Positions 8,263 to 31,254 of a DNA stretch of 32,000 bases are shown here, piece by piece (position 1 is the first letter of the stretch; the number at the start of each line of letters is the position of its first letter). The position numbers and the translations under genes were made by a program. The stretch spans positions 112,588 through 144,587 of the forward strand of contig NZ_SODD01000001.1 of NCBI RefSeq assembly GCF_004365815.1, given 5' to 3'. Under the pieces are notes generated by a model that was given only the letters and a program-made list of their open reading frames with translations, was not told where the DNA came from and made no database searches. Source of the stretch: Breznakia blatticola (GTDB lineage Bacteria; Bacillota_I; Bacilli_A; Erysipelotrichales; Erysipelotrichaceae).

Positions 8263-8389
8263 AAAAAAGTGTACCATGTATTCTAGCAAAAAAAATATCT
8301 ATTATTGACAACATGCGAATGTTTTACCCCACAAATAAATACTGACAATATAAAAGTTAGAAGCTAATTGATTTTCAATATAATATTCA

Positions 8390-8453: not shown

Positions 8454-8474
8454 CTTTTTTGATCTTTTTCATTT

Positions 8475-8912: not shown

Positions 8913-9191
8913 CTTAACCTCTCATAACTTTTTTGAAAAACTCTCCAACTCTAGGTGAAAATTCAAACAATTCAGCAAAGCGTTTATTCTGTTGTATTTC
9001 CAAAGATTGCAAAATTTACCATTACAATCAATGAAAATATCATACAAAACCTAAAATCATTAACTTTTTTCACCTTCTCATTGTTTTTAACTGTGAAGAT
9101 AATATGTTCACAATTTAAATTGCTCTCTCAGTAATTTAAAGAATTTCATAATAACAGAAATTCTAGTTATTTTATCTCAACACCATTCAGT

Positions 9192-10493: not shown

Positions 10494-10528
10494 AAAAAAA
10501 CCATATAATCCCGAACAGGACTATACGG
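10494..10528 (-). terminator. Strong rho-independent terminator, about 227 nt downstream of the wHTH gene
   Basis: The minus-strand RNA forms an 11-bp stem CCGUAUAGUCC/GGAUUAUAUGG (two G-U pairs) with a 6-nt loop, followed by U7. Confidence 0.7.
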
Positions 10529-10754
10529 CTTCATTTTTAGTACAATAATACCTTGTTATTTATGAATCAAAGCTCACAATATACGTTTTACTTACTGCAA
10601 TATCTCAAATATAGAATGAGTAGTTCCAACAACATTTATAGTTGTACTATTTTCTCTTTGTATTAATTCTGTACAGTTAGCATGAAAATCACCCAAAACA
10701 TTCTTTACAAATTCAAAAATAAACTTGTTAAGTAAACTAATATTGAAATCTTCA

Positions 10755-11051
10755 TTATTTGCTTCCTGTAGTAAGACTATTTAGTATATTTACATATTCT
10801 AAGAATTCACGTCTTCCCTTCTTTGTTAACGAATATGTAGTTTGCGGCTTATTGTTAATAAACTCTTTTTTAACAGATATATAATCATTTTCGATTAATT
10901 TTTTTGTATGAGTCGTCATATTACCATCTGAACATTCACAGATATCTTTTAATTCGCGATATGTTAAATCAGATACTGAAAGGCTTGCGATCATTTGCAA
11001 ACGAATATTTGATTCGAATACCTTTGACGTTTGAAGAAGTTTAGTCGACAT
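10755..11051 (-). CDS. Winged-helix transcriptional regulator (small, ~98 aa)
   Basis: IRLQMIASLSVSDLTYRELKDICECSDGNMTTHTKKLIENDYISVKKEFINNKPQTTYSLTKKGRREF shows the HTH plus beta-wing pattern of ArsR/PadR-like small wHTH proteins. It overlaps the end of the upstream membrane gene. An alternative GTG start exists at 11060. Confidence 0.7.
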   Translation of the reverse strand: MSTKLLQTSKVFESNIRLQMIASLSVSDLTYRELKDICECSDGNMTTHTKKLIENDYISVKKEFINNKPQTTYSLTKKGRREFLEYVNILNSLTTGSK

Positions 11052-11733
11052 CTTTAGCACTTCTCAATAATAACCAGCAATACAATAAAGAAATAATCGG
11101 AATTATATTAAAATCTGCAAACCAAACAAAACAATCGTTCATTTTAACTATAAAAAGAAAATAATCTGTCAATTCAACCGCTGTCTCCATAGTTATCCTT
11201 ACATAAACAACACATGCAAAATAGATTAACAAAAAAATAATAGGTAGTAAAAAAGTTTTTCTTTTCGTAAAGTTATATATAAGTAGAAAAGCAGCTATCA
11301 TAATAATTACTTCCAACGGTATCATTAAATGCATGTAATACATTATAATTGAATCAAAATAGTATATAAGAATAAAAACTAGACTATTAAATGACAATAA
11401 AATTGGTATTATCATAAATGAGTGCAAGAAATTTTTATCAGATAAATTCATTTTATTTCGCTTAACAAGATAATAATATAAGCATGGAATTACTATATAA
11501 AATGATATCAGCATTATTCGATATATCGAATAATATAGTTCACTCTGATAAAGTCCATTTATGCGCATAATTGATTGGTATATATATATAATTGTAGATG
11601 CGATAAAATAGAAAAGGAAAAGATATTTCATATATTTCGATATATTACGAGTATCTTTGTTTTTCGACAATACAAAATGAGTATTACTTATTGCGGTGTT
11701 AATTATTTCTTTTGAATTTTTCATGTGATTCAT
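11041..11733 (-). CDS. Polytopic membrane protein (230 aa), unknown function, co-transcribed with the wHTH regulator
   Basis: About six hydrophobic helices that are very Ile/Leu/Tyr/Phe-rich. Its 3' end overlaps the regulator gene. Confidence 0.55.
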   Translation of the reverse strand: MNHMKNSKEIINTAISNTHFVLSKNKDTRNISKYMKYLFLFYFIASTIIYIYQSIMRINGLYQSELYYSIYRIMLISFYIVIPCLYYYLVKRNKMNLSDKNFLHSFMIIPILLSFNSLVFILIYYFDSIIMYYMHLMIPLEVIIMIAAFLLIYNFTKRKTFLLPIIFLLIYFACVVYVRITMETAVELTDYFLFIVKMNDCFVWFADFNIIPIISLLYCWLLLRSAKDVD

Positions 11734-12040
11734 CCTCTAAAATAATTATAGGAAAAGCATTTAAGTATGTAAAGATATTTGTCACGTAAACTAAGTGTTT
11801 TATTTTATCGATATTACTATTTATTAAAAAGTAATAAAGCTAAACTACAACTGTCGTAAAAAGCTTTTGAAAATTTATAACTCGATAGTTTGATAAAGAT
11901 TCATTTCTTTTAATTTTACATTTATTATCAGACTTTAGCTTTCTTTTCATTTTAGAATAAGTTAAGTATTCTGTTTATTCCTTTAACTCAACTATTAATA
12001 ATATGTGTACCATACATACACATTGTCTAATATCAACAAC

Positions 12041-13061: not shown

Positions 13062-13137
13062 TGGCGGTCCTGATGGGACTCGAACCCACGATCTCCTCCG
13101 TGACAGGGAGGCATGTTAACCACTACACCACAGGACC
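13062..13137 (-). tRNA. tRNA-Asp (anticodon GTC), CCA encoded
   Basis: The reverse complement reads GGTCCTGTGGTGTAGTGGTTAACATGCCTCCCTGTCACGGAGGAGATCGTGGGTTCGAGTCCCATCAGGACCGCCA. It has a 7-bp acceptor stem GGTCCTG/CAGGACC, an anticodon stem CCTCC/GGAGG with loop CTGTCAC, and a GTTCGAGTC T-loop. Confidence 0.9.
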
Positions 13138-20124: not shown

Positions 20125-20916
20125 ATGGCAAAAGAAGTATTTGGTCGTCATGAATGTAAATTCAAAGTGACTCAACAACAAAAAGATGCATTACTTGCAG
20201 ATTTAGCAGGCACAATCGAAAATGACATCTACAACAAGGATGGAAAACCCTATACCATCTACAACTACTATATCGATGATATTCACAATACATTTATTCA
20301 AAGATCCGTAAGTAAACCGCTGTATAAAGAGAAATTGCGAATTCGTGCATATGAACCGTTTTGTGATGACACGATGGTTTTTGTGGAAATCAAAAAGAAG
20401 TATAAGAAATATGGAAATAAGCGGCGTATCATGATGCCTTTCAAACAAGCAAAGGCATTTGTTGAAAAAGGTGAACTACCAAGTGATCTTTCAAACATCA
20501 ACCAGCAAGTTTTACGCGAATTGAAATATACCATTGATAAACAACGATTGCAGTTAAAAGTACATGTACAGTATGAACGGTATGCGTATTTTTCAATCGT
20601 GCAAAAAGGACTGCGATTCACCTTTGATACAAATATCATCAGCAATCGCATTCGCGACAAACAACGAAGTTTACTAGAAAAGAATATGTACATATTGGAA
20701 ATCAAAGCAGAACAAAGTTTTCCATTATGGTTAGTCAAGCTACTACAAAAACATAAGATATATAAACAAAGTTTTTCCAAGATTGGAAAAGAATACGAGT
20801 TATATACAAAAGAAAGAAAAGAGATGAAACAACATCAGGAGGAATTATATGTTAGAAACACTTTTAAATATGAGTACGGATACAACAACGCTGTCGCTCA
20901 CAAATCTACTACTTAG
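20125..20916 (+). CDS. VTC-domain protein (triphosphate-tunnel, polyphosphate-polymerase-like)
   Basis: The N-terminal RHECKFKV (ExK tunnel motif), KPLYKEKLRIRAY, VFVEIKKKYKKYGNKRR and ILEIKA strands match the bacterial VTC/CYTH-like family as I recall it. Confidence 0.65.
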   Translation: MAKEVFGRHECKFKVTQQQKDALLADLAGTIENDIYNKDGKPYTIYNYYIDDIHNTFIQRSVSKPLYKEKLRIRAYEPFCDDTMVFVEIKKKYKKYGNKRRIMMPFKQAKAFVEKGELPSDLSNINQQVLRELKYTIDKQRLQLKVHVQYERYAYFSIVQKGLRFTFDTNIISNRIRDKQRSLLEKNMYILEIKAEQSFPLWLVKLLQKHKIYKQSFSKIGKEYELYTKERKEMKQHQEELYVRNTFKYEYGYNNAVAHKSTT

Positions 20917-21532
20917 TATGAGCATTGCCTTAGTACTTGGAGCAAGTATTGCATTTACTTATAAACATACAAGTAAGAACCACTATTCGCAAAACTTGAT
21001 AAGCAGTTTATTATTACTGCCTGTATTAATGTGTTGCGTATTTCTACTCATTGGAAACAATGTAGCAGGTGCATTCTCATTAGCTGGAGTATTTTCTGTC
21101 ATTCGCTTTCGGAGTGCACCAGGAAGCAGCAGAGATATTGTATATATTCTATTTTGCGTAGCGGTTGGTCTTGCTTGTGGCTTACAAGCTCCCCTATTCG
21201 CCATTATCATTACAGTATGTATTTGTATTGTCTTTTTCATTTTGGACCTACTACAAGTAAGTACAAGTGGCACAAAACGAATGAAACTTGTAATGCTTGT
21301 TCCTGAGGAAATGAATGAAGAAGAAAACTTTAGTGAAATCTTAAAAGACTATACGAAATCGTATGAACTGGTCCGTATGCGTACAAAAGACTTTGGCAGT
21401 ATTTTTGAATTAACCTACGTGATTACCCTTTATGAAAGTCAAAATAAACACGAACTTTTAGATAGTTTACGTTGTCGCAATGCAAACCTAAACATATCGT
21501 TAAGCAATATGATGCACACAGATGAATTTTAG
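20849..21532 (+). CDS. DUF4956-like membrane protein (usual partner of bacterial VTC-domain genes)
   Basis: Four TM helices are followed by a soluble C-terminal domain. AGGAGG lies 7 nt upstream of the ATG at 20849, and the gene overlaps the VTC gene tail by 68 nt. Confidence 0.6.
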   Translation: MLETLLNMSTDTTTLSLTNLLLSMSIALVLGASIAFTYKHTSKNHYSQNLISSLLLLPVLMCCVFLLIGNNVAGAFSLAGVFSVIRFRSAPGSSRDIVYILFCVAVGLACGLQAPLFAIIITVCICIVFFILDLLQVSTSGTKRMKLVMLVPEEMNEEENFSEILKDYTKSYELVRMRTKDFGSIFELTYVITLYESQNKHELLDSLRCRNANLNISLSNMMHTDEF

Positions 21533-21540
21533 GAGGCTAC

Positions 21541-23145
21541 ATGAAATATATAAAACACATACTACCTATCTTACTTGTATTGGTTCTTGTTAGTGCTTGT
21601 CAGACAAACACTAACGAAGAAGAAAGTGATACAAGTACTTCAGGATCAACAATCACCTTAAAAAATGATTCCATTACCAGTGATGATACGAGTGTCCAAA
21701 TTAGTGAGACAACAGCAACAATAACCAAAGCCGGAACGTATACGATTAGTGGAACACTTGATGATGGACAAATCCTTGTTGATGCAAATGATACTGCAAA
21801 AGTTACCATCATTTTAGATAATGTTGATATTCACTGTGAAACAAGCAGTGCAATTTATATAAAAAATGCAGATGAAACAACCATCACCCTAAAAGAAAAT
21901 ACAGAAAACACATTGAGTGATGGAAGCACGTATACCGTTCTTGATGAAAGTGAAGAACCGGATGCTACACTATTTTCTAAAGACGATCTTGTGATTGACG
22001 GAAATGGAAGTTTAACGATTCAAGCAAACTACAAAGATGGAATTGGTGGAAAAGATGATGTAAATATTAAAGATGCTACAATTTCTATCCAAGCAACTGA
22101 TGATGGGATTCGTGGTAAGGATTCTCTCATTATTGAAAATGCAACGCTTACTATCACTGCAGTAAATGATGCACTAAAAGCAACAAATGATACAGAAGCA
22201 GATAAAGGAATTTTAGAAATTCATGACGGTTCGTATACTCTTACAACAACTGGAACAGATGCGACAAGTCACAAAGCCATCAAAGCCTATACATCTATCA
22301 CTATTAGTGATGGAACATTTGACATTGATGCAACGGATGATGCAGTACACTCACAAAATGTCACAATTGATGGTGGAACCTATACGATAGCAACTGGGGA
22401 TGATGGAATACATGCTGATGCAACTTTACTTATTCATGATGGAACCATTGATATCAAACAATCTTATGAAGGTCTTGAAGCTGCTGACTTACAAATACAT
22501 GGTGGTAACATTCAAATCGTCGCTAGCGATGATGGGATAAATGCAGCTGGTGGTAGTGATAGTACAACTGAAACAAGTACTCCAGGATTCAATGGTGGTC
22601 CTGGTGGAAATGATATGTTTTCTACCTCAACAGGTACTTTACAAATAAGTGGTGGTATAATCACTGTTGATGCACAAGGAGATGGAATTGATGTAAATGG
22701 AGATGCAACAATCACAGGTGGTACAATCACTGTATATGGACCAGCTAACGATGGAAATGGTGCACTGGATTATGATGGAAGTTTTGCAATTTCTGGTGGT
22801 CAATTAATCGCCTATGGAACAAGTGGAATGGCATTAAATGTAAGTGAAAATTCAAGTCTAACAACTGTTATGATAAATCTTGATACAACCATTGCAGCAG
22901 GTGCAAATGTTTCAATTGTTGATGATGAAGGAAATGAAATTTATAATGGAACAAATGCTAAAAATGCAAATTCCTTTATTATTGCAAGTTCTAAACTAGC
23001 TATTAATAGCACGTATACACTACAAGTTGATGGTAGCAAACGAACAACATTCACCCCAACTAGTACAGTCACAACCATTGGAAATAGTGGTGGTATGAAT
23101 GGAGGACCAGGCGGTGGCTTTGGTGGACCCGGACAAGGAAGATAA
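21541..23145 (+). CDS. Secreted lipoprotein with parallel beta-helix repeats (Cthe_2159-like carbohydrate-binding family) and Gly-rich tail
   Basis: The lipobox is LVSAC. About ten repeats of ~21-22 aa follow the pattern GTxxIxAxDDGIxAxxxLxIxG (e.g. GTYTIATGDDGIHADATLLIHD, GNIQIVASDDGINAAG). The C-terminus reads GGMNGGPGGGFGGPGQGR. Confidence 0.6.
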   Translation: MKYIKHILPILLVLVLVSACQTNTNEEESDTSTSGSTITLKNDSITSDDTSVQISETTATITKAGTYTISGTLDDGQILVDANDTAKVTIILDNVDIHCETSSAIYIKNADETTITLKENTENTLSDGSTYTVLDESEEPDATLFSKDDLVIDGNGSLTIQANYKDGIGGKDDVNIKDATISIQATDDGIRGKDSLIIENATLTITAVNDALKATNDTEADKGILEIHDGSYTLTTTGTDATSHKAIKAYTSITISDGTFDIDATDDAVHSQNVTIDGGTYTIATGDDGIHADATLLIHDGTIDIKQSYEGLEAADLQIHGGNIQIVASDDGINAAGGSDSTTETSTPGFNGGPGGNDMFSTSTGTLQISGGIITVDAQGDGIDVNGDATITGGTITVYGPANDGNGALDYDGSFAISGGQLIAYGTSGMALNVSENSSLTTVMINLDTTIAAGANVSIVDDEGNEIYNGTNAKNANSFIIASSKLAINSTYTLQVDGSKRTTFTPTSTVTTIGNSGGMNGGPGGGFGGPGQGR

Positions 23146-24192: not shown

Positions 24193-24291
24193 TAAATCGC
24201 TAAACAATACTTATTTATCGTAAAACGATATATTTGTATTGTTTTTTAATATTTATTGTGTTATTTTAAATATAGAAACATGGAGGTACTT

Positions 24292-24771
24292 ATGAAGGGA
24301 AAACATATTCCAACCATTTTGTTTATATTTATTACATTGATTTTAGTATTCGTAGCATTTCTATATGGATTTTTTATTCCAGTATTAGCTGAACAGTATA
24401 CATATGGGTTTCCAGAATTAGAAAGCATCAAAAATATCGTCTTAGTTTTCATTGAATGCACAGGAATTCCTGTACTTATCATTCTTGGACTTGGATATGC
24501 TGTTGGTATTCAAATCATGAAGTTTGAACACTTTACAAGAAAAACCGCAAAGTACATGCGTAGTATTTCTGTTTTATCTTTGTTTGATGCAATCTACTTT
24601 GGTATAGGAATGTGTATTATGGCATTTTTTGGTTATATAGATCCACCTACTATCATTGGCTCAGGTGCTGCTATTATCTTTGCACTTGCTGTAGCTGGTG
24701 CAAGTTATGCTCTTAGTTATTTCATTTATGAAGCAGCAAAGTTGCAAGAAGAAAGTGAGTTGACAATTTAA
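24292..24771 (+). CDS. DUF2975-like four-TM membrane protein
   Basis: GGAGG lies 5 nt before the ATG at 24292. It has four hydrophobic helices, and its stop overlaps the start of the small HTH gene (TAATG), the conserved DUF2975/YozG-type pairing. Confidence 0.55.
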   Translation: MKGKHIPTILFIFITLILVFVAFLYGFFIPVLAEQYTYGFPELESIKNIVLVFIECTGIPVLIILGLGYAVGIQIMKFEHFTRKTAKYMRSISVLSLFDAIYFGIGMCIMAFFGYIDPPTIIGSGAAIIFALAVAGASYALSYFIYEAAKLQEESELTI

Positions 24772-25001
24772 TGGAAGAACAAGGTAAAATTGTTTTCAAC
24801 ATTGATGTAATGTTGGCAAAACGAAAAATGAGCGTCACCGAATTATCTAGACTTGTAGGAATCAATATGCCCAATATGTCTATTTTAAAAAATGGAAAAG
24901 CAAAAGCCATTAAAGTTCATACATTATTAAAACTCTGTGAAGCCCTTGACTGTCAGCCTGGTGATTTACTAAGCTATGAAAAAAATGATGATAACACATA
25001 A
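24771..25001 (+). CDS. Small XRE/Cro-type HTH regulator (YozG-like)
   Basis: IVFNIDVMLAKRKMSVTELSRLVGINMPNMSILKNGKAKAIKVHTLLKLCEALDCQPGDLL is a full-length match to the YozG-type pattern. Confidence 0.85.
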   Translation: MEEQGKIVFNIDVMLAKRKMSVTELSRLVGINMPNMSILKNGKAKAIKVHTLLKLCEALDCQPGDLLSYEKNDDNT

Positions 25002-25010
25002 ATATAAGCA

Positions 25011-25046
25011 AAAACCGCAGTTCTCAATTTTGAACTGCGGTTTTCT
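25011..25046. terminator. Bidirectional rho-independent terminator
   Basis: A 13-nt perfect inverted repeat AAAACCGCAGTTC/GAACTGCGGTTTT with an 8-nt loop lies between the convergent HTH gene and the distal TrkA gene. Confidence 0.8.
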
Positions 25047-25053: not shown

Positions 25054-25713
25054 TTATGCAAATAATGCATTTAGTTCTTCAAGTTGATCATCATAACATA
25101 AGAACATGATGTGATCATTACTTTCAATTGTAGTATTTCCTTTTGGAATGACTACTTCATGGTTTCTTGTGATTGCAATTAAGACAGCTTTATCAGGGAT
25201 TGCTAGATCCTTAATTTCTTTTCCAATAGCCATTGAATTTGCTTCTACTGTGATTTGACTAATTGAGTATTCTCCACGGTTTAATTTCATCAATGTCATA
25301 ACATTACGCATGTCAATTTCATCAACTACTAAACGTGCAAGCAATTCTGCTTGATTGACTTTCACATCAACTCCCATTTCTAAAGTAAATAACCATTCGT
25401 TGCTTGGGTGATTTACACGTGCGATTACACGGTCCACACCAAACTCATATTTTGCGATAGTTGCACTTACAAGGTTAACTTCATCTTTACCTGTAACACA
25501 AACCACGACGTCACAATCTTGCATCCCTGCTTGTGACATGATCACTGGATCACTACCATCACCTTCAACTAAGATGTCTGGACTGAATTTACCACGAATC
25601 TTTTGTAGTACTTTTTCACGTGATTCGATAACTTTTACATCGATTTCGTGTTTAACGAGTATATCTGTAATGTAAGAACCAACTTGTCCTCCACCAATAA
25701 TAATAACTTTCAT
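25054..25713 (-). CDS. TrkA/KtrA-type RCK protein (TrkA_N Rossmann + TrkA_C), copy 2
   Basis: MKVIIIGGGQVGSYI is the GxGxxG NAD-binding loop, and the C-terminal RCK_C-like part contains IAITRNHEVVIPKGNTTIESNDHI. GGAGG lies 6 nt upstream. Confidence 0.8.
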   Translation of the reverse strand: MKVIIIGGGQVGSYITDILVKHEIDVKVIESREKVLQKIRGKFSPDILVEGDGSDPVIMSQAGMQDCDVVVCVTGKDEVNLVSATIAKYEFGVDRVIARVNHPSNEWLFTLEMGVDVKVNQAELLARLVVDEIDMRNVMTLMKLNRGEYSISQITVEANSMAIGKEIKDLAIPDKAVLIAITRNHEVVIPKGNTTIESNDHIMFLCYDDQLEELNALFA

Positions 25714-25723
25714 GATGTACCTC

Positions 25724-26371
25724 CTAATTCATTCCCAGTAGGCTTTTTAGTGTACCTACTGAAGAATTTAAGACAGCGATAAACAATCCATCATTTGGTT
25801 GAAGAATCGTTCCACTAGTTGGTAAGAAAGCATCGTTGTTGCGCTCAATTGAGACAACGCGCACTTCTCCAAGGCGATTGATTTCTTCAATGGTTTTTCC
25901 AACAAGCAATGCTGGTACATCCACTCTCACTAATTCAACACCACCACCAAGTGACATGATGCCATCAAGTTGAGTGTATGTGATAATCTCACTAGCTCTT
26001 GCGATTCCCCAATCTGTTGTAGAAATGGTTTGTACACCTAACATTGAGTAAATCTTTGCTTTGTCGCGGTCATATAACCGCGCAATAACATGTGGAACAC
26101 GATAGATGTTCTTTGAAATTCTTGCAATTAGTGCATTGGTTTCATCGGAATTGGTACAACTGATTAATGCATCACTTCTTTCAATTCCTGCTTGTTCTAA
26201 TACCTTTTTATCAAACCCCAATCCATTAACTGCCGTGAATGCACTTGTTTTTGCAAGTTTTTCTAATACTTCTTGGTTGGTGTCAATCAAGGTAATTTTG
26301 TGGCCTTCTAAAGAAAGTTTTTGGCATAATCCGCTTCCCATTCTTCCGCCACCGACGATAATGATATTCAT
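25724..26371 (-). CDS. TrkA/KtrA-type RCK protein (TrkA_N + TrkA_C), copy 1
   Basis: MNIIIVGGGRMGSGL is the Rossmann loop, and the C-terminal part contains VVSIERNNDAFLPTSGTILQPNDGLFI. Its ATG directly abuts the ATPase stop codon (TAAATG). Confidence 0.8.
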   Translation of the reverse strand: MNIIIVGGGRMGSGLCQKLSLEGHKITLIDTNQEVLEKLAKTSAFTAVNGLGFDKKVLEQAGIERSDALISCTNSDETNALIARISKNIYRVPHVIARLYDRDKAKIYSMLGVQTISTTDWGIARASEIITYTQLDGIMSLGGGVELVRVDVPALLVGKTIEEINRLGEVRVVSIERNNDAFLPTSGTILQPNDGLFIAVLNSSVGTLKSLLGMN

Positions 26372-29188
26372 TTACTTCACCCCTTTGCTTGATGATTTTT
26401 GTTTCGCAATTTCTTTTCCATACATGATTTTCTTACGTAATTCTTCAAGTGCTACAACTGGAATTGGAATAAGTGCCAATATAATCCATTGCGTTAAACC
26501 AAGAGGTCCTGTATTAAAGACATCTTGTAAGAATGGCACATACATCAATAATGCAAGAAGCACGATTTCAAAGACAATTCCAAATACGATTTTTTTATTT
26601 GAGAATAAACCAACGGTAAATACCGAACGTTTATTTGTTCGACAGTTAATAACTGCTCCAATTTGACAGAACACAATTGCTGCTAGTGTCATTGTTGTTG
26701 CTTCCTTATAAACAGCTCCACTACTAGCAAGTGGCACATTTGGCCAACCATTTGCAATATTAATTAAGAAATATCCTGCCATTGAAATTACTGCCGCAAT
26801 CAATCCATACCATAAGAATGCTTTGATGATTAGAGATTTCGACAACAAGCGATCTGATTTCTTACGCGGTGGTTGATCCATAATTCCTTCTTCAGGAAGT
26901 TCTGTTCCTAGACCAAGAGCAGGTAGCATATCTGTACCAAGGTCAATTGCAAGAATTTGCATAACTGTTAATGGAAGTGGAATGAGTCCACCAGAGAATA
27001 AGAATGCTGCACTAGGCACCGCTTCTGCCATATTTGAGTTTAATATATACAGTAAGAAACGACGAATGTTTGCATATACTGCACGTCCTTCTTCTACTGC
27101 TTTTACAATACTTGCAAAGTTGTCATCTGTAAGAATCATATCTGCAGCTTCTTTGGCAACATCGGTTCCCGTGATCCCCATGGCAACCCCGATGTCTGCC
27201 TTTTTCAGTGCTGGTGAATCATTTACTCCATCTCCTGTAACGGCAACCGTTTCACCCATTTCTTGGAGCATGCTCACAACACGATATTTTTGTTCTGGTG
27301 CAACTCTGGCAAAGATAATTTCATCTTTTAGCGCTTGCTTTAATTCATCATCTTCCATGCTTTCTAGTTCCATTCCAGAAACTACACGTGGATTTTCACC
27401 TTTTACAATACCAATTCGTTTGGCAATACTTTCAGCAGTCAATCCATAGTCACCTGTCACCATGACAATACGAATACTTGCCTTGTGACATAGTTCAACA
27501 GCTGCTGCTACTTCTGGACGTGGTGGGTCAAGCATAACAACTAGCCCAACAAAGACCATATCTTGTTCGATAATCTCTGGTGTATAAGCACTCATTTGTA
27601 CTGGCACATTACTATCCTTTGTAATTGGACGATAACTTAATGCCAACACACGTAATCCATTACGCGCATACGTGTCATTTGCTTCCATGATTTTTGTTCG
27701 ATATACTTCGCTCATTTCCACTTTTTGACCATCAACGATAATATGTGTAGATAGTTCCATCACTTCTTTTGGTGCACCTTTTATAAATGCAATTCGTTTA
27801 CTACCATCTACTTCTTGATGCATTTGATGAATCGTTGTCATGCGTTTACGACGAGAATCAAATGGTAACTCACGAACTCTTGGAGCTTCCTGTGCAAGCT
27901 GTGTTAAGTCAATTTTCGCTTTCTGAGCAACGACACCTAAACATGCTTCCGTTGGATCTCCTAACACGGTATAACGATCATTATCTTCATTTGGTGGCAC
28001 AATTCTTGCATTGCTACATAGCGCCATCCCACGTAATAATAAATCTAAGTCTTTATCATCTTTGTATGTTACAGCTTTTCCATCAAGTTCGACACTTCCT
28101 TCACTTGAGTAACCCAAGCCTGTAACTTTATATTCTTTATTTGGTAACCAAATATCACTTACTGTCATTTCGTTTTGTGTTAGTGTTCCTGTTTTATCCG
28201 AACAGATAACACTCGTACTACCTAGCGTTTCAACGGCACTTAGTTTTTTAACCAAAGCATGTTCTTTTGCCATACGTTGTACAGCCATCGCTAGAGATAG
28301 TGTAACTGTTGGCAATAAACCTTCTGGAATAAAGGCAACCATCATTCCTAAGGCGAAAATGAAACTTTTCGCTACTGGGTCATGTACAAATACAATCGCT
28401 GCAATAAAGAAGAATAATCCAATTCCTGCTGCAATCATTGAAATTTGACGGGTTAAACGGTCCAATTCTTTTTGTAGTGGACTTGATTCAACTTCCATGT
28501 TTTGCGTTAAATTGGCAATCTTACCAAATTCGGTATTCATTCCAATTGCAGTAACAACTGCTTTTCCAGAACCACTTGAAACACTTGTACCAGCAAAGAT
28601 TAAATTTGGATATTCAAAGCGAGTTAAATCATCTTTTAATACCGCATCACTTTGCTTATGTACAGGATTACTTTCTCCTGTTAAGGCACTTTGATTCGCT
28701 TGAAAATCTGAAGTTTCAACAAGACGTGCATCTGCACTAATCTTATCTCCTTCTTCGACAAGCATCACATCTCCAGGCAATAACTCTTCTGTTAGGATTT
28801 GTTGTTCTTGTCCATCACGAATCACACGTGCATATGAAGGCAACATTTTCTTCAATGCATCTGTTGCTTTTCCAGCTTGGAATTCTTGCCAGAAACTAAA
28901 CAATCCATTGATGACATTAACTAGCCAAATCGCTATACCTAATTCTGGCATTTCGGCAATAATCGCAACGATACCACCAAACCAAAGTAGAATTGCCATC
29001 ATCGAAGTAAAGTGACCTAGAAACAATTTCCAAGTGGGCTCCCCTTTAACTTCTTCAATTTCATTCTTTCCATAGGTAGCACGTAAACGATCAAGTTCAT
29101 CACTTGAAAGTCCTTGGGGCTTGCTACCAAGTTGTTCATAAACTTCTTGAGGGGGAAGTTTATAAATCTGCAAATTTTTCTTCTCCAT
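26372..29188 (-). CDS. P2-type cation-transporting P-type ATPase with Na,K/H,K-ATPase-like (P2C-like) M4/M6 motifs
   Basis: Contains CSDKTGTLTQNEM (phosphorylation site), TGES, MVTGD, TGDGVNDSPALKKADIGVAMG, M4 AFIPEGLLPTVT, M5 YILNSNMAE and M6 ILAIDLGTDMLPALGLG. The ATG at 29188 follows GGAAAGG by 5 nt, whereas the ORF-track start at 29203 has no SD. Confidence 0.9.
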   Translation of the reverse strand: MEKKNLQIYKLPPQEVYEQLGSKPQGLSSDELDRLRATYGKNEIEEVKGEPTWKLFLGHFTSMMAILLWFGGIVAIIAEMPELGIAIWLVNVINGLFSFWQEFQAGKATDALKKMLPSYARVIRDGQEQQILTEELLPGDVMLVEEGDKISADARLVETSDFQANQSALTGESNPVHKQSDAVLKDDLTRFEYPNLIFAGTSVSSGSGKAVVTAIGMNTEFGKIANLTQNMEVESSPLQKELDRLTRQISMIAAGIGLFFFIAAIVFVHDPVAKSFIFALGMMVAFIPEGLLPTVTLSLAMAVQRMAKEHALVKKLSAVETLGSTSVICSDKTGTLTQNEMTVSDIWLPNKEYKVTGLGYSSEGSVELDGKAVTYKDDKDLDLLLRGMALCSNARIVPPNEDNDRYTVLGDPTEACLGVVAQKAKIDLTQLAQEAPRVRELPFDSRRKRMTTIHQMHQEVDGSKRIAFIKGAPKEVMELSTHIIVDGQKVEMSEVYRTKIMEANDTYARNGLRVLALSYRPITKDSNVPVQMSAYTPEIIEQDMVFVGLVVMLDPPRPEVAAAVELCHKASIRIVMVTGDYGLTAESIAKRIGIVKGENPRVVSGMELESMEDDELKQALKDEIIFARVAPEQKYRVVSMLQEMGETVAVTGDGVNDSPALKKADIGVAMGITGTDVAKEAADMILTDDNFASIVKAVEEGRAVYANIRRFLLYILNSNMAEAVPSAAFLFSGGLIPLPLTVMQILAIDLGTDMLPALGLGTELPEEGIMDQPPRKKSDRLLSKSLIIKAFLWYGLIAAVISMAGYFLINIANGWPNVPLASSGAVYKEATTMTLAAIVFCQIGAVINCRTNKRSVFTVGLFSNKKIVFGIVFEIVLLALLMYVPFLQDVFNTGPLGLTQWIILALIPIPVVALEELRKKIMYGKEIAKQKSSSKGVK

Positions 29189-29299
29189 AATTACCTTTCC
29201 CATAACATTCTAACAAATGTAAATATGAATGGACCTAAAAATCCATAAGCACAATCATACTCTTTTCTTCCTATAAATCAATACTAAACTTTAATGAAT

Positions 29300-29328
29300 T
29301 TTATAGCAATTATGATACTTCATTTGAA
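29300..29328 (-). promoter_or_regulatory. Candidate promoter of the ATPase-RCK operon
   Basis: The minus strand reads TTCAAA (29328-29323), 17 nt, TATAAA (29305-29300), immediately downstream of the 11-bp repeats. An alternative TTGATT-16-TATGAT lies at 29281-29254. Confidence 0.3.
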
Positions 29329-29329
29329 T

Positions 29330-29362
29330 GTTAAGATTCGGTTAAAATACGGTTAAAAATCG
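29330..29362. repeat. Three head-to-tail 11-bp direct repeats (candidate regulator-binding array)
   Basis: The plus strand reads GTTAAGATTCG GTTAAAATACG GTTAAAAATCG with no spacer, so the period is one helical turn. Confidence 0.6.
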
Positions 29363-29429
29363 CTTATTTTCCCCTTATTATTTACGAAAGTATATGAGAG
29401 AAATATAAAACTTATATGGCTATTGTTGA

Positions 29430-30071
29430 CTAGTAAATCGTGAATTCACTAAGATGATAATCAATGATTCCTTCATCACGCATCTTGGATAATTCCGCAC
29501 TCAATGCCGAACGATCGACGGATAAATAATCTGCGAGTTCATTTCGATTGAATGGAATACTAAAACGATAGTTTCTTTGTTGCTGGGCTTGCATTGATAG
29601 AAATGCAAGTACCTTATCACGTATTTTACGTTTACTTAAAATATCCATCTTTTGTGACATAAAGACATTTTTGCTGGAAAGGATATACATCATATTTTTC
29701 ATCAGTTGCGGATACCGAACACCAAAGTCAATAAACTGTTCCCCAGTAATAAATAAGATATCACTATCTTTATGTGCGACAACATTTACAGGCAATTCTT
29801 CTACCCGAGAAAAGGCGAAGGACTCACAAAAAATCTCACCTTTTCCTAATACATTGACAATACTACGATTTCCCCAGTAATCCAATTTTGAAACGGTTAC
29901 ATTCCCTTTTAAAATAAAACCAATTGCATACTGCGATTCTCCCATCGCAAATACAGTCTGCTCACGGTCGTATGTCTTACGATGCAAACTTTCTAAGATT
30001 ACTTGTACTTCTGAATTTTTTAATCCCTTGAATAAAGGATGTGCATAAATCATTTGAAATATTTTATTCAT
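29430..30071 (-). CDS. Crp/Fnr-family transcriptional regulator
   Basis: An N-terminal cNMP-binding beta-roll (GESQYAIGFILKGNVTVSKLDYWGNRSIVNVLGKGEIFCESFAF) is joined to a C-terminal HTH (FNRNELADYLSVDRSALSAELSKMRDEGII). It has no N-terminal Cys cluster. Confidence 0.85.
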   Translation of the reverse strand: MNKIFQMIYAHPLFKGLKNSEVQVILESLHRKTYDREQTVFAMGESQYAIGFILKGNVTVSKLDYWGNRSIVNVLGKGEIFCESFAFSRVEELPVNVVAHKDSDILFITGEQFIDFGVRYPQLMKNMMYILSSKNVFMSQKMDILSKRKIRDKVLAFLSMQAQQQRNYRFSIPFNRNELADYLSVDRSALSAELSKMRDEGIIDYHLSEFTIY

Positions 30072-30084
30072 AAACTACCCCATC

Positions 30085-30100
30085 TGTTGTAAAAACAACA
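30085..30100. promoter_or_regulatory. Palindromic candidate Crp/Fnr-type operator in the divergent intergenic region
   Basis: TGTTGT-AAAA-ACAACA has perfect 6-4-6 inverted arms. Its centre lies about 37-40 bp upstream of the likely TSS following the TATAGT -10 element (30117-30122) of the Fe-S/cupin operon, and 14 bp upstream of the crp-like start codon. Confidence 0.4.
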
Positions 30101-30165
30101 TACTTCTTAAACTCACTATAGTATTCTATCATTACAAAGTCAAACGACGTAAAGGAGAAATTCAA

Positions 30166-30906
30166 TTGAAACGTAACATAGTAACGATAAATGAAGATTT
30201 ATGTAATGGGTGTGCTGCATGTGCAGTTGCCTGTCACGAAGGTGCCATTGCAATGATTAATGGAAAAGCCAAACTAATCAAAGAAGACTATTGTGATGGA
30301 CTTGGTGATTGTTTACCAAGTTGTCCAACCGGTGCAATTACCATTGAAGAAAAAGATGTAGAAGCTTATGACCAACAAGCCGTTGATATCCATGTGAAAG
30401 CGATGGCAGAAAAAGGAAATCCACATCATACGAATGTCGAAGTTCCAATACATGCGCATGCACATAGCGGATGTCCAGGTTCTATGGCAAGAAGTTTGCA
30501 ACCACAAGCAAAGACTCAAGAAAACACACAAGTAAGCAGTCAAAGTCAATTAAGACAGTGGCCAATTCAAATCAAATTAGCTCCTGTGAGTGCACCATAT
30601 TTTGAAGATGCAAATCTACTAATTGCAGCAGACTGTACAGCATATGCATATGCAAGATTTCATGAAGACTTTATTAAGAATTCCATTTGTATTATCGGTT
30701 GTCCAAAATTAGATGAAGGTGACTATACTGAGAAACTCGAGCAAATCATTGTGCAAAACAATATAAAGAGTGTCACAATTGTACGTATGGAAGTACCATG
30801 TTGTGGTGGGCTTGAACAAGCCGCAAAACATGCACTACAAAACAGTGGAAAGTTTATTCCATGGCAAGTAAAAACCATCAGTATCGATGGCAAAATCATA
30901 GATTAG
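30166..30906 (+). CDS. Iron-sulfur protein: N-terminal 2x[4Fe-4S] ferredoxin domain + His-rich linker + Cys-containing C-terminal domain
   Basis: Two cluster motifs are present, CNGCAACAVACHEGAI and CDGLGDCLPSCPTGAI. The linker reads HHTNVEVPIHAHAHSGCPG, and the C-terminal domain contains ADCTAYAY, IGCPKLD and VPCCGG. The start is TTG, with GGAG 8 nt upstream. Confidence 0.75.
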   Translation: MKRNIVTINEDLCNGCAACAVACHEGAIAMINGKAKLIKEDYCDGLGDCLPSCPTGAITIEEKDVEAYDQQAVDIHVKAMAEKGNPHHTNVEVPIHAHAHSGCPGSMARSLQPQAKTQENTQVSSQSQLRQWPIQIKLAPVSAPYFEDANLLIAADCTAYAYARFHEDFIKNSICIIGCPKLDEGDYTEKLEQIIVQNNIKSVTIVRMEVPCCGGLEQAAKHALQNSGKFIPWQVKTISIDGKIID

Positions 30907-30918
30907 AAAGGAGCTATC

Positions 30919-31254
30919 ATGAATAAAGTTGTAAAGAATATCACACCAAGTGAAGTTATGGAACTAAAAGATTTAGTGAATGCGAATCCTGGAGAAGTCG
31001 TAAGTAAAATCATCGTCCAAAATGATAAAGTATCGATGACATTGTTTGCATTTGCCCAAGGTGAAGAAATTGGAGCACATACCTCAAAAGGGGATGCCCT
31101 TGTTACTGTACTAGAAGGAAGTGCGATTATTACTATCGACAATGTAGAACATACTGTATCTACGAATCAAAGCATTTTAATGCCTGCAGACATCTTACAT
31201 GCACTGTATGCTAAAGAACCGTTTAAAATGCAACTTACCCAAATGTTTGAATAA
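30919..31254 (+). CDS. Cupin-domain small protein
   Basis: A 111-aa protein with the G(X)5H-type motif QGEEIGAHTSKGDALVTVLEG and a second beta-barrel motif at MPADILHAL. AAGGAG lies 7 nt upstream. Confidence 0.7.
   Translation: MNKVVKNITPSEVMELKDLVNANPGEVVSKIIVQNDKVSMTLFAFAQGEEIGAHTSKGDALVTVLEGSAIITIDNVEHTVSTNQSILMPADILHALYAKEPFKMQLTQMFE

What the first reader, a model, noticed from the sequence alone, without database searches (positions are those of the whole stretch)
25054..29203. Na,K-ATPase-like P-type pump translationally coupled to two RCK (TrkA) proteins, with no TrkH/KtrB partner
Seen in sequence:
- One minus-strand operon encodes a ~940-aa P2 ATPase followed by two paralogous TrkA_N+TrkA_C proteins.
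- The ATPase stop and the first trkA-like start are contiguous (TAAATG). The second gene follows after 10 nt with its own GGAGG.
- The operon ends at a strong terminator (25011-25046), and no K+-translocating TrkH/KtrB-type membrane subunit is present in it.
- The pump's M4 (IPEGLLPTVT) and especially M6 (ILAIDLGTDMLPALGLG...IMDQPPRK) resemble the Na,K/H,K-ATPase alpha-subunit signature (VPEGLLATVT; CIDLGTDMVPAISLAYE..DIMKRQPR). They do not resemble the SERCA/bacterial Ca-pump signature (IPEGLPAV; VNLVTDGLPA).

Established knowledge: RCK/TrkA rings gate K+ channels and Ktr/Trk transporters in response to nucleotides. They are not known as partners of P-type pumps.

Inference: this may be a K+-handling P2C-like pump regulated or assembled with a hetero-oligomeric RCK ring, which would be an undescribed architecture.
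Basis: partly seen in the sequence, partly recalled or inferred. Interest (0 to 1): 0.7.

Follow-up and report, generated by a model that had tools for sequence, protein, structure and literature searches.

The report
P-type ion pump with RCK partners
A bacterial ATP-driven ion pump whose ion-binding pocket resembles the animal sodium-potassium pump is almost always encoded together with two potassium-channel-type "RCK" regulator proteins, across several phyla, which points to an undescribed kind of regulated pump, probably for potassium.

Summary
On the minus strand, a 943-aa P2-type ATPase (26372-29203) abuts RCK-A (TAA|ATG). RCK-B follows after 10 nt, then a terminator.

The three-gene unit is strongly conserved:
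- 83 of 84 pump loci, from Bacillota, Coriobacteriia and a Chloroflexota MAG, have RCK-A then RCK-B directly downstream. The median gap is 1 nt and ATGA overlaps are common.
- 60 of 61 informative metagenome loci found through RCK-B alone carry the pump.
- The unit recurs with pumps only 53%, 48% and 41.5% (Streptomyces) identical.
- No TrkH/KtrB gene lies in the window or in the scanned flanks of L001-L083.

RCK-A and RCK-B correspond to the two halves of tandem TrkA, that is, a split TrkA. In Thermotoga, such a pair sits beside trkH. Here a pump occupies that place.

The pump's ion-site residues match Na,K-ATPase at every K+-coordinating position and are invariant. The Na+ site-III aspartate is absent, there is no beta-subunit loop, and no curated P2 subfamily cutoff is met.

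No paper in the searched library describes RCK partners for P-type pumps.

Best reading: a K+-handling P2 pump controlled by a nucleotide-sensing split-TrkA ring. Physical association, ion and direction remain inferred.

The parts
26372..29203 (-). P2-type P-type ATPase (943-aa ORF; probable true start at ATG 29188, giving 938 aa). Its cation site is like that of Na,K-/H,K-ATPase: E294, Y719, S723, N724, E727, D754, T757, D758, Q847, E879. Residue A850 sits where Na,K-ATPase has the site-III Asp.
   Evidence: ORF; Pfam domains; below every NCBIfam P2 equivalog cutoff; residue-level alignment to Na,K-ATPase and LMCA1; M5-M10 half ranks P2C first; site residues invariant in 81 orthologues; 100% identical to a Breznakia blatticola protein.
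25724..26371 (-). RCK-A: a TrkA_N + TrkA_C protein (215 aa). It corresponds to the first RCK unit of tandem TrkA and to Thermotoga TM1088A. The GxGxxG motif is conserved.
   Evidence: Pfam; best PDB match is TrkA residues 1-218, and TM1088A scores above TM1088B; directly follows the pump in 83 of 84 loci; motif conservation.
25054..25713 (-). RCK-B: a TrkA_N + TrkA_C protein (219 aa). It corresponds to the second RCK unit of tandem TrkA and to Thermotoga TM1088B. GGGQVG and E30 are conserved in at least 90% of orthologues.
   Evidence: Pfam; best PDB match is TrkA residues 234-451, and TM1088B scores well above TM1088A; follows RCK-A in 80 loci; motif conservation.
26369..26386 (-). Pump/RCK-A junction. 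The pump stop TAA (26374-26372) abuts the RCK-A ATG (26371-26369). An SD-like AAAGGGGTG (26386-26378) lies inside the pump's 3' end. This layout fits translational coupling.
   Evidence: Sequence. Across 83 loci the pump-to-RCK-A gap has a median of 1 nt; 38 of 83 are 0 or negative, and -4 (ATGA overlap) is the commonest value.
25711..25726 (-). RCK-A/RCK-B junction: stop TAG (25726-25724), GGAGG (25724-25720), a 10-nt gap, then ATG (25713-25711).
   Evidence: Sequence. Across 80 loci the A-to-B gap has a median of 12 nt, and 74 of 80 are 30 nt or less.
25010..25045 (-). Intrinsic-terminator-like hairpin that ends the operon.
   Evidence: Consensus scan: 14-bp stem, 6 GC pairs, followed by a T-run.
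29204..29429 (-). 5' intergenic region of the operon. It holds a weak sigma-70-like match (29281-29254, 9 of 12 positions) and no recognisable riboswitch.
   Evidence: Promoter scan; Rfam at gathering threshold and in E-value mode finds nothing; 10 diverse loci also have no RNA element upstream.
29430..30071 (-). Crp/Fnr-type regulator (cNMP_binding + HTH_Crp_2) just upstream on the same strand. It is a possible local regulator and not a conserved part of the unit.
   Evidence: Pfam. A similar regulator lies about 160-230 nt upstream of the pump in only a few loci.

Best explanation
The three genes encode one functional unit.

Components:
- A P2-type P-type ATPase with a two-site cation pocket like that of Na,K-/H,K-ATPase.
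- Two cytoplasmic RCK proteins that together are a split TrkA.

Proposed assembly (inferred): by analogy with tandem TrkA and with the Thermotoga TM1088A/B ring, RCK-A and RCK-B form a hetero-octameric ring (4A+4B). The ring binds adenine or nicotinamide nucleotides through its conserved Rossmann motifs. It docks on the pump's cytoplasmic side, in place of the TrkH channel it serves in Trk systems, and switches the pump on or off according to the cell's energy or ionic state.

Proposed transport (inferred): the pump most likely handles K+. The favoured mode is ATP-driven K+ uptake as the counter-ion, in exchange for H+ or Na+, with at most two ions per cycle, because the third Na+ site of Na,K-ATPase is missing.

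What is shown: gene structure, domain identities, residue conservation, and near-obligate two-way linkage with fixed order and start/stop overlaps over large evolutionary distances.

What is inferred: physical complex, ring stoichiometry, ligand, K+ specificity and direction.
For: Linkage:
- Forward: 83 of 84 pump loci (61-100% identity) from many orders of Bacillota, Coriobacteriia and a Chloroflexota MAG have an RCK-A orthologue and then an RCK-B orthologue directly downstream.
- Pump-to-RCK-A gaps have a median of 1 nt, and 38 of 83 are 0 or negative, mostly ATGA overlaps.
- Reverse: of 80 metagenome loci found with RCK-B alone, 60 carry pump+A+B, 19 are cut by a contig end, and 1 lacks the pump.
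- The unit recurs with distant pumps: 53% (L167), 48% (L168) and 41.5% in Streptomyces fungicidicus (L174). Each has 4-nt overlaps and the A-like-then-B-like order.
- Flanking genes differ between loci and there is no recurrent fourth gene.
- No TrkH family member is among the flanking membrane proteins of L001-L083 or in the window.

RCK identity:
- RCK-A matches TrkA residues 1-218 and RCK-B matches residues 234-451.
- The same split is seen against TM1088A and TM1088B.
- The TM1088A/B genes overlap and sit beside their TrkH partner TM1089 (PMC4380455). The pump occupies that position here.
- GxGxxG plus an acidic residue is conserved in both proteins.

Ion site:
- E294, Y719, S723, N724, E727, D754, D758 and Q847 are invariant in 81 pumps. 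T757 (80/81) and E879 (78/81) are nearly so.
- These equal Na,K-ATPase E327, Y771, S775, N776, E779, D804, D808, Q923, T807 and E954.
- LMCA1 differs at three of these positions.
- The M5-M10 half scores 88-99 bits against Na,K-/H,K-ATPases, 83 against SERCA and 50 against LMCA1.
- A canonical Ca2+-type pump (PEGLPAVVT, NLVTD) in one of the same loci (L040) is only 36% identical.

Wider context:
- Some sister pumps carry a fused N-terminal PTS_EIIA_2 domain. EIIA-Ntr is a documented regulator of TrkA and KdpD (PMC9239096 and its reference 42).
- Other sister pumps have abutting Usp genes.
- S. venezuelae is reported to lack TrkH/KtrB yet to hold RCK_C proteins without a partner (PMC10117811).
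- The M. tuberculosis 'Trk' system is described as two TrkA proteins, and that paper never mentions TrkH (PMC13163235).
Against: - No experiment or structural model shows that the pump and the RCK proteins touch.
- No natural pump-RCK fusion was found among the best 150 pump representatives or the top 120 RCK-A relatives.
- Some close pump relatives lack RCK genes: P0121 (57%), P0123 (51%) and L. plantarum pEM1 (56%). One RCK pair (L153) and one pump (L044) stand alone. The pump can therefore exist without the pair.
- The K+ assignment is indirect. The whole protein scores equally well against the Listeria Ca2+ pump, and the best NCBIfam score is PMR1-type Ca2+. The pocket keeps four carboxylates, as SERCA does.
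- No K+-linked riboswitch lies upstream and there is no c-di-AMP signature.
- Whether these genomes hold orphan TrkH/KtrB genes could not be checked.
Confidence: 0.6

Rival explanations
1. The two RCK proteins are an ordinary two-subunit TrkA that gates a TrkH/KtrB channel encoded elsewhere in the genome. The pump is merely co-transcribed for physiological coordination, for example Na+ or H+ extrusion accompanying K+ entry, without touching the RCK ring.
For: - The closest solved relatives of RCK-A and RCK-B are TrkA halves and TM1088A/B, whose partner is TrkH.
- Databases name these proteins 'Trk system potassium uptake protein TrkA'.
- In E. coli, trkA and trkH are unlinked (own knowledge).
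- Some close pump relatives work without RCK genes.
Against: - Linkage to the pump is near-obligate in both directions (83/84 and 60/61), with fixed order and frequent 4-nt overlaps, down to 41.5% pump identity.
- No trkH/ktrB lies in the window or in the scanned flanks of L001-L083, although the characterised two-subunit TrkA genes sit beside trkH.
- At least one Streptomyces species is reported to have RCK_C proteins but no TrkH/KtrB at all. It is not shown that this species carries the unit.
Confidence: 0.15
2. The RCK pair does regulate the pump, but the pump's substrate is not K+. It could be a Ca2+ (or other divalent cation) exporter, or a pure Na+ exporter, with the RCK ring acting only as an energy or ion sensor.
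For: - Whole-protein best hits tie between Listeria LMCA1 (528 bits) and Na,K-ATPase (528 bits).
- The best NCBIfam score is the PMR1-type Ca2+ pump (632 bits).
- The pocket has four carboxylates, as in SERCA.
- Some RCK domains, such as MthK, sense Ca2+ (own knowledge).
- JGI labels some members 'potassium/sodium efflux' or 'Ca2+-transporting'.
Against: - The positions that separate Ca2+ pumps from Na,K/H,K pumps (M6 N796->D754, M8 E908->Q847, M4 PEGLL) are all of the P2C type and invariant.
- The M5-M10 half ranks 34 Na,K/H,K chains ahead of any Ca2+ pump.
- A canonical Ca2+-type pump is present in one of the same loci, L040, at only 36% identity.
- Every characterised partner of TrkA_N+TrkA_C proteins is a K+ (or K+/H+) transporter (own knowledge).
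- No curated Ca2+-pump cutoff is met.
Confidence: 0.2
3. The complex is a K+ (or Na+/K+) efflux pump of the ENA type, with the RCK ring opening it when cytoplasmic K+ or Na+ is excessive, rather than a K+ uptake system.
For: - RCK proteins also control K+ efflux systems such as KhtTU, CpeAB and Kef.
- Some sources annotate members as 'potassium/sodium efflux P-type ATPase'.
- No feature in the sequence fixes the direction.
Against: - The fungal ENA model scores lowest of the P2 models (475 bits against a cutoff of 645).
- The pocket matches the pumps that import K+ as the counter-ion.
- The efflux-type RCK proteins KhtT and CpeA bind c-di-AMP through a signature that is absent here (0 of 161).
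Confidence: 0.2

Closest known systems
Na,K-ATPase / H,K-ATPase alpha subunits (P2C P-type ATPases)
   Same: - M4 motif PEGLL-TVT.
- M5 Y..SN..E, M6 D..TD, M8 Gln and M9 Glu, that is, every side chain that coordinates the two K+ ions.
- The M5-M10 half scores best against these proteins.
   Different: - The Na+ site-III Asp (D926) is replaced by A/M/V/Q, and T774 by Asn.
- The M7-M8 loop that binds the beta subunit is about 25 residues shorter, and no beta or FXYD gene is present.
- TIGR01106 scores 622 against a cutoff of 946.
- The host is bacterial and the pump is partnered with RCK proteins.
Trk system with a two-subunit TrkA ring (Thermotoga TM1088A/TM1088B + TrkH TM1089; tandem TrkA-TrkH of Vibrio)
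   Same: - Two adjacent, often overlapping genes encode an RCK1-like and an RCK2-like protein.
- These correspond to the two halves of TrkA, with conserved nucleotide-binding motifs.
   Different: The neighbouring membrane gene is a P-type ATPase, not a TrkH channel. No TrkH family gene is in the window or in the scanned flanks of L001-L083.
KdpFABC (P1A K+-uptake pump)
   Same: It is an ATP-driven P-type system dedicated to K+, built from a P-type ATPase plus parts borrowed from K+ channel systems.
   Different: - Kdp borrows the channel-like membrane subunit KdpA and has no RCK.
- Here the pump keeps its own P2-type ion pocket and borrows the cytoplasmic RCK regulator.
- The KdpB models score far below cutoff (113 against 528).
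KhtTU / CpeAB (an RCK protein regulating a K+/H+ antiporter)
   Same: A soluble TrkA_N+TrkA_C protein encoded next to a non-channel cation transporter controls it (PMC10117811).
   Different: - The partner there is a secondary CPA2 antiporter, and a single RCK protein is regulated by c-di-AMP.
- Here the partner is a primary pump, there are two distinct RCK proteins, and the c-di-AMP signature is absent.
Prokaryotic P2C-like pumps of methanogenic archaea
   Same: They are uncharacterised prokaryotic pumps with Na,K-ATPase-like ion sites, flagged as an open enigma (PMC10654040).
   Different: - Those are reported to conserve all three Na+ sites. This clade lacks the site-III Asp.
- An RCK partnership is not mentioned for them.
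Mycobacterium tuberculosis CeoB/CeoC 'Trk' system
   Same: An operon of two TrkA-type proteins that is implicated in K+ uptake, with no TrkH named as partner (PMC13163235).
   Different: ceoBC is not known to be linked to a P-type ATPase. Whether it is related to RCK-A/B was not tested here.

Membership tests
P2C (Na,K-/H,K-ATPase alpha) | M4 PEGLL motif and the K+-coordinating residues of M4, M5 and M6 (E327, S775, N776, E779, D804, D808) | tested here: met
   E294, S723, N724, E727, D754 and D758 align to these positions and are invariant in 81 orthologues.
P2C (Na,K-/H,K-ATPase alpha) | Na+ site-III aspartate (D926), or the M5 lysine of H,K-ATPases | tested here: not met
   Position 850 is A, M, V or Q and is never acidic. 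The M5 position is Ser, not Lys.
P2C (Na,K-/H,K-ATPase alpha) | Obligatory beta subunit and the long M7-M8 ectoloop that binds it | tested here: not met
   The alignment breaks between query residues 825 and 838, against 844 to 882 in the alpha-4 chain, so the loop is about 25 residues shorter. No conserved extra gene is in the unit.
P2C (Na,K-/H,K-ATPase alpha) | Curated family score (NCBIfam TIGR01106) | tested here: not met
   621.6 bits against a cutoff of 946.1.
P2A Ca2+-ATPases (SERCA, PMR1/SPCA, LMCA1) | Curated family scores (TIGR01116, TIGR01522) | tested here: not met
   579.8 against 703.4, and 632.1 against 798.3.
P2A Ca2+-ATPases (SERCA, PMR1/SPCA, LMCA1) | Ca2+-site signature: M6 N..TD (LMCA1 N..ND), M8 Glu, M4 PEGLP/PEAL | tested here: not met
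   M6 is D..TD, M8 is Gln847 and M4 is PEGLLP. LMCA1 differs at three aligned positions. A canonical Ca-type pump in locus L040 is 36% identical. The SERCA motifs are from own knowledge.
P2D ENA-type Na+/K+ efflux ATPases | Curated family score (TIGR01523) | tested here: not met
   474.6 against 645.05.
TrkA-type RCK gating ring (two-subunit form) | TrkA_N + TrkA_C architecture, with the two proteins matching RCK1 and RCK2 of TrkA | tested here: met
   Pfam. RCK-A matches TrkA 1-218 and TM1088A; RCK-B matches TrkA 234-451 and TM1088B.
TrkA-type RCK gating ring (two-subunit form) | Rossmann nucleotide-binding motif (GxGxxG plus an acidic residue after beta-2) | tested here: met
   RCK-B has GGGqvG and E30 in at least 90% of 80 sequences. 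RCK-A has GxGxxG conserved and D30 in 60-90% of 81 sequences.
TrkA-type RCK gating ring (two-subunit form) | A TrkH/KtrB channel as membrane partner | tested here: inconclusive
   No PF02386 (TrkH) member was found among flanking membrane ORFs of L001-L083 or in the window.
TrkA-type RCK gating ring (two-subunit form) | Octameric ring assembly | not testable with these tools
   No multimer modelling is available. This is inferred from homology to 3L4B and 4J9U.
c-di-AMP-binding RCK_C proteins (KtrA/KtrC, KhtT, CpeA) | RCK_C signature (I/L)(I/L)X2DX1RX5N(I/L)(I/L) | tested here: not met
   0 of 81 RCK-A and 0 of 80 RCK-B match, even with a loosened pattern (signature taken from PMC10117811). 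KtrA and KtrC score only 34-37 bits.
KdpFABC | KdpB-type P1A ATPase with KdpA, KdpC and KdpF subunits | tested here: not met
   The KdpB model scores 113.3 against a cutoff of 527.9. No kdpA/C-like recurrent neighbour was found.

The most novel reading that the evidence does not exclude
A split-TrkA RCK ring is a true subunit of a P2-type pump. That would be the first soluble, nucleotide-sensing gating ring known for any P-type ATPase. Together they would form a previously unrecognised ATP-driven K+ uptake system (K+ in, H+ or Na+ out). It would be widespread in anaerobic Gram-positive bacteria and Actinomycetota, and would explain why some bacteria have TrkA-type proteins but no TrkH/KtrB. 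Related pumps that instead carry fused EIIA or Usp-type modules would then form a pump superclade with interchangeable cytoplasmic regulators.
Probability: 0.5. Interest if true: 0.88.

Novelty: new variant of a known kind. Interest (0 to 1): 0.78.

Why it matters
- RCK rings are the textbook regulators of K+ channels and channel-like transporters. P-type pumps are known to use quite different accessory subunits: phospholamban/sarcolipin, beta/FXYD, CDC50 and KdpA/C/F (PMC10654040). A conserved RCK-pump pairing would join two heavily studied fields in a way neither has described.
- It would give a concrete, testable function for prokaryotic pumps with Na,K-ATPase-like ion sites, which the field lists as an open enigma.
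- It would correct a systematic annotation. Hundreds of genomes label these RCK genes 'Trk system TrkA'.
- It offers a candidate answer for organisms that have TrkA-type proteins but no TrkH/KtrB.
- The unit is small (three genes), occurs in cultivable bacteria (Breznakia, Caproiciproducens, Anaerocolumna, Paenibacillus, Schleiferilactobacillus, Enterococcus spp., Streptomyces), and is well suited to complementation, reconstitution and cryo-EM.

Tried and rejected
1. K+-linked riboswitch. No ydaO/c-di-AMP riboswitch or any other Rfam family lies upstream, in the window or in 10 diverse loci. This gives no support for K+, but it is not evidence against it.
2. c-di-AMP control. The published RCK_C signature is absent from all 161 RCK-A/B orthologues. 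Rejected as the likely ligand.
3. Rosetta-stone fusions. No pump-RCK fusion is among the best 150 pump representatives or the top 120 RCK-A relatives. The long relatives instead carry EIIA, Na_H_Exchanger or weak Usp/ETF-like extensions.
4. Recurrent fourth gene or TrkH in the flanks. None was found; only generic ABC and response-regulator families recur.
5. Docking-surface positions. A search for pump positions that track with having RCK partners gave only H459. There are too few confirmed RCK-less sequences, so this is uninformative.
6. Mirror-tree test. Pairwise distances of pump, RCK-A and RCK-B co-vary (Spearman 0.76-0.82). There is no independent control gene, so the result only fits co-inheritance.
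7. AlphaFold2 model of the pump from the 17-sequence alignment. Mean pLDDT was 57 and pTM 0.39, too poor to use. Fold search was therefore not run.
8. Whole-genome check for orphan trkH/ktrB in Breznakia or other carriers.
9. Literature. Nine searches found no paper linking RCK/TrkA (or EIIA) to a P-type ATPase other than Kdp. The library lacks most subscription-journal papers, so absence is not proof.
10. Exceptions inspected. L044 is a 4-kb MAG contig with a pump but no RCK. L153 is an RCK pair with no pump, no pump remnants and no TrkH nearby.

Full report
**1. The observation**

The window is from Breznakia blatticola (Erysipelotrichaceae). The pump is 100% identical to an NCBI protein of that species.

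Three minus-strand ORFs lie exactly where the finding states:
- a 943-aa P-type ATPase at 26372-29203
- a 215-aa protein at 25724-26371, here called RCK-A
- a 219-aa protein at 25054-25713, here called RCK-B

The junctions read as follows:
- The pump stop TAA is directly followed by the RCK-A ATG. An SD-like AAAGGGGTG sits inside the pump's 3' end.
- RCK-B starts 10 nt after the RCK-A stop, behind GGAGG.
- A terminator-like hairpin with a 14-bp stem at 25045-25010 closes the unit.

Pfam finds the full P-type ATPase domain set in the pump and TrkA_N + TrkA_C in both small proteins. The real pump start is probably the second ATG at 29188. Homologues are 938 aa and an SD-like GGAAAGG precedes that ATG. 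The window holds no TrkH/KtrB gene anywhere.

**2. Is the linkage conserved?**

*Forward direction.* A scan of one genome per species found at least 531 relatives of the pump, and the best 80 were kept. Together with three loci from protein look-ups and the window, 83 of 84 loci have an RCK-A orthologue immediately after the pump. 80 have an RCK-B orthologue after that, and three more are cut by a contig end.
- The order never changes.
- RCK-A orthologues are 43-92% identical to RCK-A but only 23-30% identical to RCK-B, so the two are ancient, distinct orthogroups.
- The pump-to-RCK-A gap has a median of 1 nt. 38 of 83 gaps are 0 or negative, and a 4-nt ATGA overlap is the commonest arrangement. 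The A-to-B gap has a median of 12 nt.
- Hosts include Erysipelotrichales, Oscillospirales, Christensenellales, Lachnospirales, Acetobacterium, Peptococcaceae, Lactobacillales, Bacillales/Paenibacillaceae, Coriobacteriia and a Chloroflexota MAG.
- Flanking genes are unrelated between loci, and no fourth gene recurs.

*Reverse direction.* 80 metagenome loci were found with an RCK-B alignment alone. 60 carry pump+A+B, 19 end at a contig edge, and one (L153) has the pair without a pump.

*Distant pumps.* The unit also accompanies much more distant pumps, each time with 4-nt overlaps and the A-like-then-B-like order:
- 53% identity (L167)
- 48% identity (L168)
- 41.5% identity in Streptomyces fungicidicus (L174)

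*Limits.* The linkage is not universal in the wider family. Relatives at 57%, 56% and 51% identity lack RCK genes. One pump on a short MAG contig (L044) also lacks them.

**3. What the RCK proteins are**

Against solved structures, RCK-A aligns best to residues 1-218 of tandem TrkA, and RCK-B to residues 234-451. KtrA and KtrC score far lower.

The same split appears against Thermotoga TM1088A and TM1088B. These form a crystallised two-subunit TrkA octameric ring. Their genes overlap, and they lie beside the gene for their TrkH partner, TM1089 (PMC4380455). The pair here is therefore a split TrkA. In this unit the position held by trkH in the characterised system is held by a P-type pump.

Further properties:
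- Both proteins keep the Rossmann GxGxxG motif and the following acidic residue. This is especially strong in RCK-B.
- Neither protein, in any of 161 orthologues, has the published c-di-AMP-binding RCK_C signature.
- In Erysipelothrix and two other loci, RCK-B is naturally reduced to the N-lobe. This resembles TM1088A.

**4. What the pump is**

The whole protein reaches no curated NCBIfam subfamily cutoff:

| Model | Score | Cutoff |
|---|---|---|
| PMR1-type Ca2+ | 632 | 798 |
| IIC (Na,K/H,K) | 622 | 946 |
| SERCA | 580 | 703 |
| ENA (IID) | 475 | 645 |

It ties between the Listeria Ca2+ pump LMCA1 and Na,K-ATPase in the PDB.

The ion-binding half is more decisive. For M5-M10 alone, the 34 best PDB chains are all Na,K- or H,K-ATPases (88-99 bits). 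SERCA follows at 83, SPCA at 81 and LMCA1 at 50.

Residue by residue (pig Na,K-ATPase numbering from established knowledge):

| Na,K-ATPase | This pump |
|---|---|
| E327 | E294 |
| Y771 | Y719 |
| S775 | S723 |
| N776 | N724 |
| E779 | E727 |
| D804 | D754 |
| T807 | T757 |
| D808 | D758 |
| Q923 | Q847 |
| E954 | E879 |
| T774 | N722 (changed) |
| D926 (Na+ site III) | A850 (changed) |

Across 81 orthologues the matching residues are invariant or nearly so. Position 850 is A, M, V or Q and is never acidic. LMCA1 differs at the positions aligned to E727, D754 and T757. A canonical Ca2+-type pump with PEGLPAVVT and NLVTD motifs, found in one of the same loci (L040), is only 36% identical. The M7-M8 ectoloop that binds the beta subunit in animals is about 25 residues shorter.

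The pocket is therefore that of a two-site Na,K/H,K-type pump, but the protein is not a member of the P2C family.

**5. The wider superclade**

An exhaustive search of 1.84 billion representatives shows that the PEGLLP / SNE / DTD / Q signature is shared by a larger prokaryotic group. Context look-ups, domain scans and one annotated region show the following:
- Several of the nearest non-RCK relatives carry an N-terminal PTS_EIIA_2 domain (P0124, P0125, P0175, P0197).
- Others have Usp genes abutting the pump (L165, L169, L171, L174).
- P0163 has a C-terminal extension with weak, sub-threshold Usp/ETF-like similarity. The similar extension of P0149 gave no such hit.
- One relative is fused to a Na_H_Exchanger domain.

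EIIA-Ntr is a documented regulator of TrkA and KdpD (PMC9239096 and its reference to Lee et al. 2007).

A crude neighbour-joining tree places the core RCK-linked clade and P0122 together. The RCK-linked P0133 falls elsewhere, so the association is either old with losses or was acquired more than once. The overall picture is one pump lineage that recruits different small cytoplasmic sensor modules.

**6. Best-supported mechanism**

*Shown:* a three-gene unit with near-obligate two-way linkage, a layout that fits translational coupling, a split-TrkA pair with intact nucleotide motifs, and an invariant Na,K/H,K-like two-site pocket.

*Inferred from established knowledge:* conserved gene order with overlapping genes is typical of proteins that assemble together. 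Every characterised partner of TrkA_N+TrkA_C proteins moves K+.

*Proposal:* RCK-A and RCK-B form a hetero-octameric ring that docks on the pump and gates its cycle according to ATP/ADP or NAD(H). The pump moves K+, most likely importing it as the counter-ion for H+ or Na+ export, with at most two ions per cycle.

*My estimates:*
- about 0.75 that the pump and RCK pair are a functional unit
- about 0.55 that K+ is a substrate
- about 0.4 that the direction is uptake

**7. Rival explanations**

(a) The pair serves an unlinked TrkH, and the pump is only co-expressed.
- This fits the homology and the database names.
- It fits poorly with the linkage statistics and with the absence of trkH from the window and the scanned flanks of L001-L083.
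- It also fits poorly with reports of actinomycetes that have TrkA-type or RCK_C proteins but no TrkH.
- It could not be excluded, because whole genomes could not be scanned.

(b) The substrate is Ca2+ or another cation. Whole-protein scores and the four-carboxylate pocket leave this possible. The discriminating residues argue against it.

(c) The complex is an efflux pump. Nothing in the sequence fixes the direction.

**8. Novelty**

Nine full-text searches found no paper that pairs RCK/TrkA proteins, or EIIA, with a P-type ATPase other than Kdp. Palmgren's 2023 survey of P-type ATPase subunits and open questions lists no such partner, and it calls prokaryotic P2C-like pumps an enigma. Public annotation simply calls the RCK genes 'Trk system TrkA'.

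I classify this as a new variant of known kinds: a P2 pump combined with a TrkA-type ring. The library lacks most subscription-journal papers, so a prior description cannot be ruled out.

**9. Negative or unusable results**
- No riboswitch lies upstream.
- No natural pump-RCK fusion was found.
- No informative partner-specific positions were found on the pump.
- The distance co-variation test had no control.
- The AlphaFold model was too poor to use (pLDDT 57).

Noticed in passing
Proteins P0124, P0125, P0175, P0197 (locus L164 5001-8207 for P0124): The nearest non-RCK relatives of the pump (44-49% identical, same Na,K-like ion-site signature) carry an N-terminal PTS_EIIA_2 (EIIA-Ntr/PtsN-type) domain of about 150 aa fused to the P-type ATPase. 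I found no description of such fusions. EIIA-Ntr is a known regulator of TrkA and KdpD.
   Followed up: partly
L165 3878-4360; L169 276-725; L171 3164-4000; L174 2874-4710; proteins P0149 and P0163 C-termini: Universal stress protein (Usp) genes abut related pumps in four contexts. Two pumps have C-terminal extensions of about 330 aa. The P0163 extension has weak, sub-threshold Usp/ETF-like similarity (Usp 21 bits against a cutoff of 24); P0149 gave no such hit.
   Followed up: partly
Protein P0251 (1305 aa): A Na_H_Exchanger (CPA) membrane domain is fused N-terminally to a complete P2-type ATPase (39% identical to the window pump). This is a secondary antiporter and a primary pump in one polypeptide.
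   Followed up: no
L174 (Streptomyces fungicidicus p1, 292767-305499): The Streptomyces copy of the unit sits among two Usp genes, a nitroreductase, Hsp20, DUF1876 and nicotinate phosphoribosyltransferase. From memory, this gene set resembles actinobacterial dormancy/hypoxia (DosR/OsdR-type) regulons. L175 (P0142) has a GAF-HisKA_3 kinase and a GerE-type regulator nearby.
   Followed up: no
L021 9457-9861 and L016 (Erysipelothrix); L049; L068: RCK-B is only 134-148 aa (N-lobe only, no TrkA_C), with no second ORF supplying the C-lobe. This is a natural variant that resembles Thermotoga TM1088A.
   Followed up: partly
L153 4334-5663; L044 70-2877: These are the only two true exceptions to the linkage. 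L153 is an RCK-A/RCK-B pair with no pump, no pump remnants and no TrkH nearby (neighbours are a thioredoxin-reductase-like gene and ligA). L044 is a pump on a 4-kb MAG contig with no RCK genes in the 1.3 kb downstream.
   Followed up: yes
L173 (Lactiplantibacillus plantarum plasmid pEM1, 15506-18280 in the record): A pump 56% identical to the window pump is carried on mobilizable L. plantarum plasmids without RCK genes. A 224-aa hypothetical protein follows after a gap of about 465 nt. This shows the pump lineage is plasmid-mobile and can occur without the pair.
   Followed up: partly
window 29430-31254: A Crp/Fnr-type regulator lies 226 nt upstream of the pump on the same strand. It is followed divergently by a 4Fe-4S protein and a cupin. 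Each of these three families also recurs in a few other loci (4 loci per family), which may simply be close relatives of Breznakia; co-occurrence of the trio in the same loci was not checked.
   Followed up: partly
window 8001-12000: A stretch with markedly low GC (0.26-0.28, against 0.32-0.39 elsewhere) and strongly negative GC skew. It holds short minus-strand ORFs; the one scanned (11041-11733) had no Pfam hit. A tRNA gene lies nearby at 13065-13137. This could be an island or foreign DNA.
   Followed up: no
window 20125-23145 and 24256-25001: VTC-domain, DUF4956 and Cthe_2159 carbohydrate-binding-like genes lie in a row. Just downstream of the operon's terminator, on the opposite strand, is a DUF2975 membrane protein with an overlapping HTH_26 (Cro/C1-type) regulator.
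   Followed up: no
L040 248-2998; L004 1240-3912: A second P-type ATPase lies a few kb upstream of the unit in these loci (36-37% identical to the pump). The L040 copy has canonical Ca2+-type motifs (PEGLPAVVT, NLVTD); no such motifs were found in the L004 copy. It served as an internal outgroup.
   Followed up: yes
L039 (Leptolinea sp. UBA1437 MAG): The complete unit occurs in a Chloroflexota MAG, and its pump groups with Clostridia pumps in the NJ tree. This suggests horizontal transfer of the three genes together, or a binning error.
   Followed up: no
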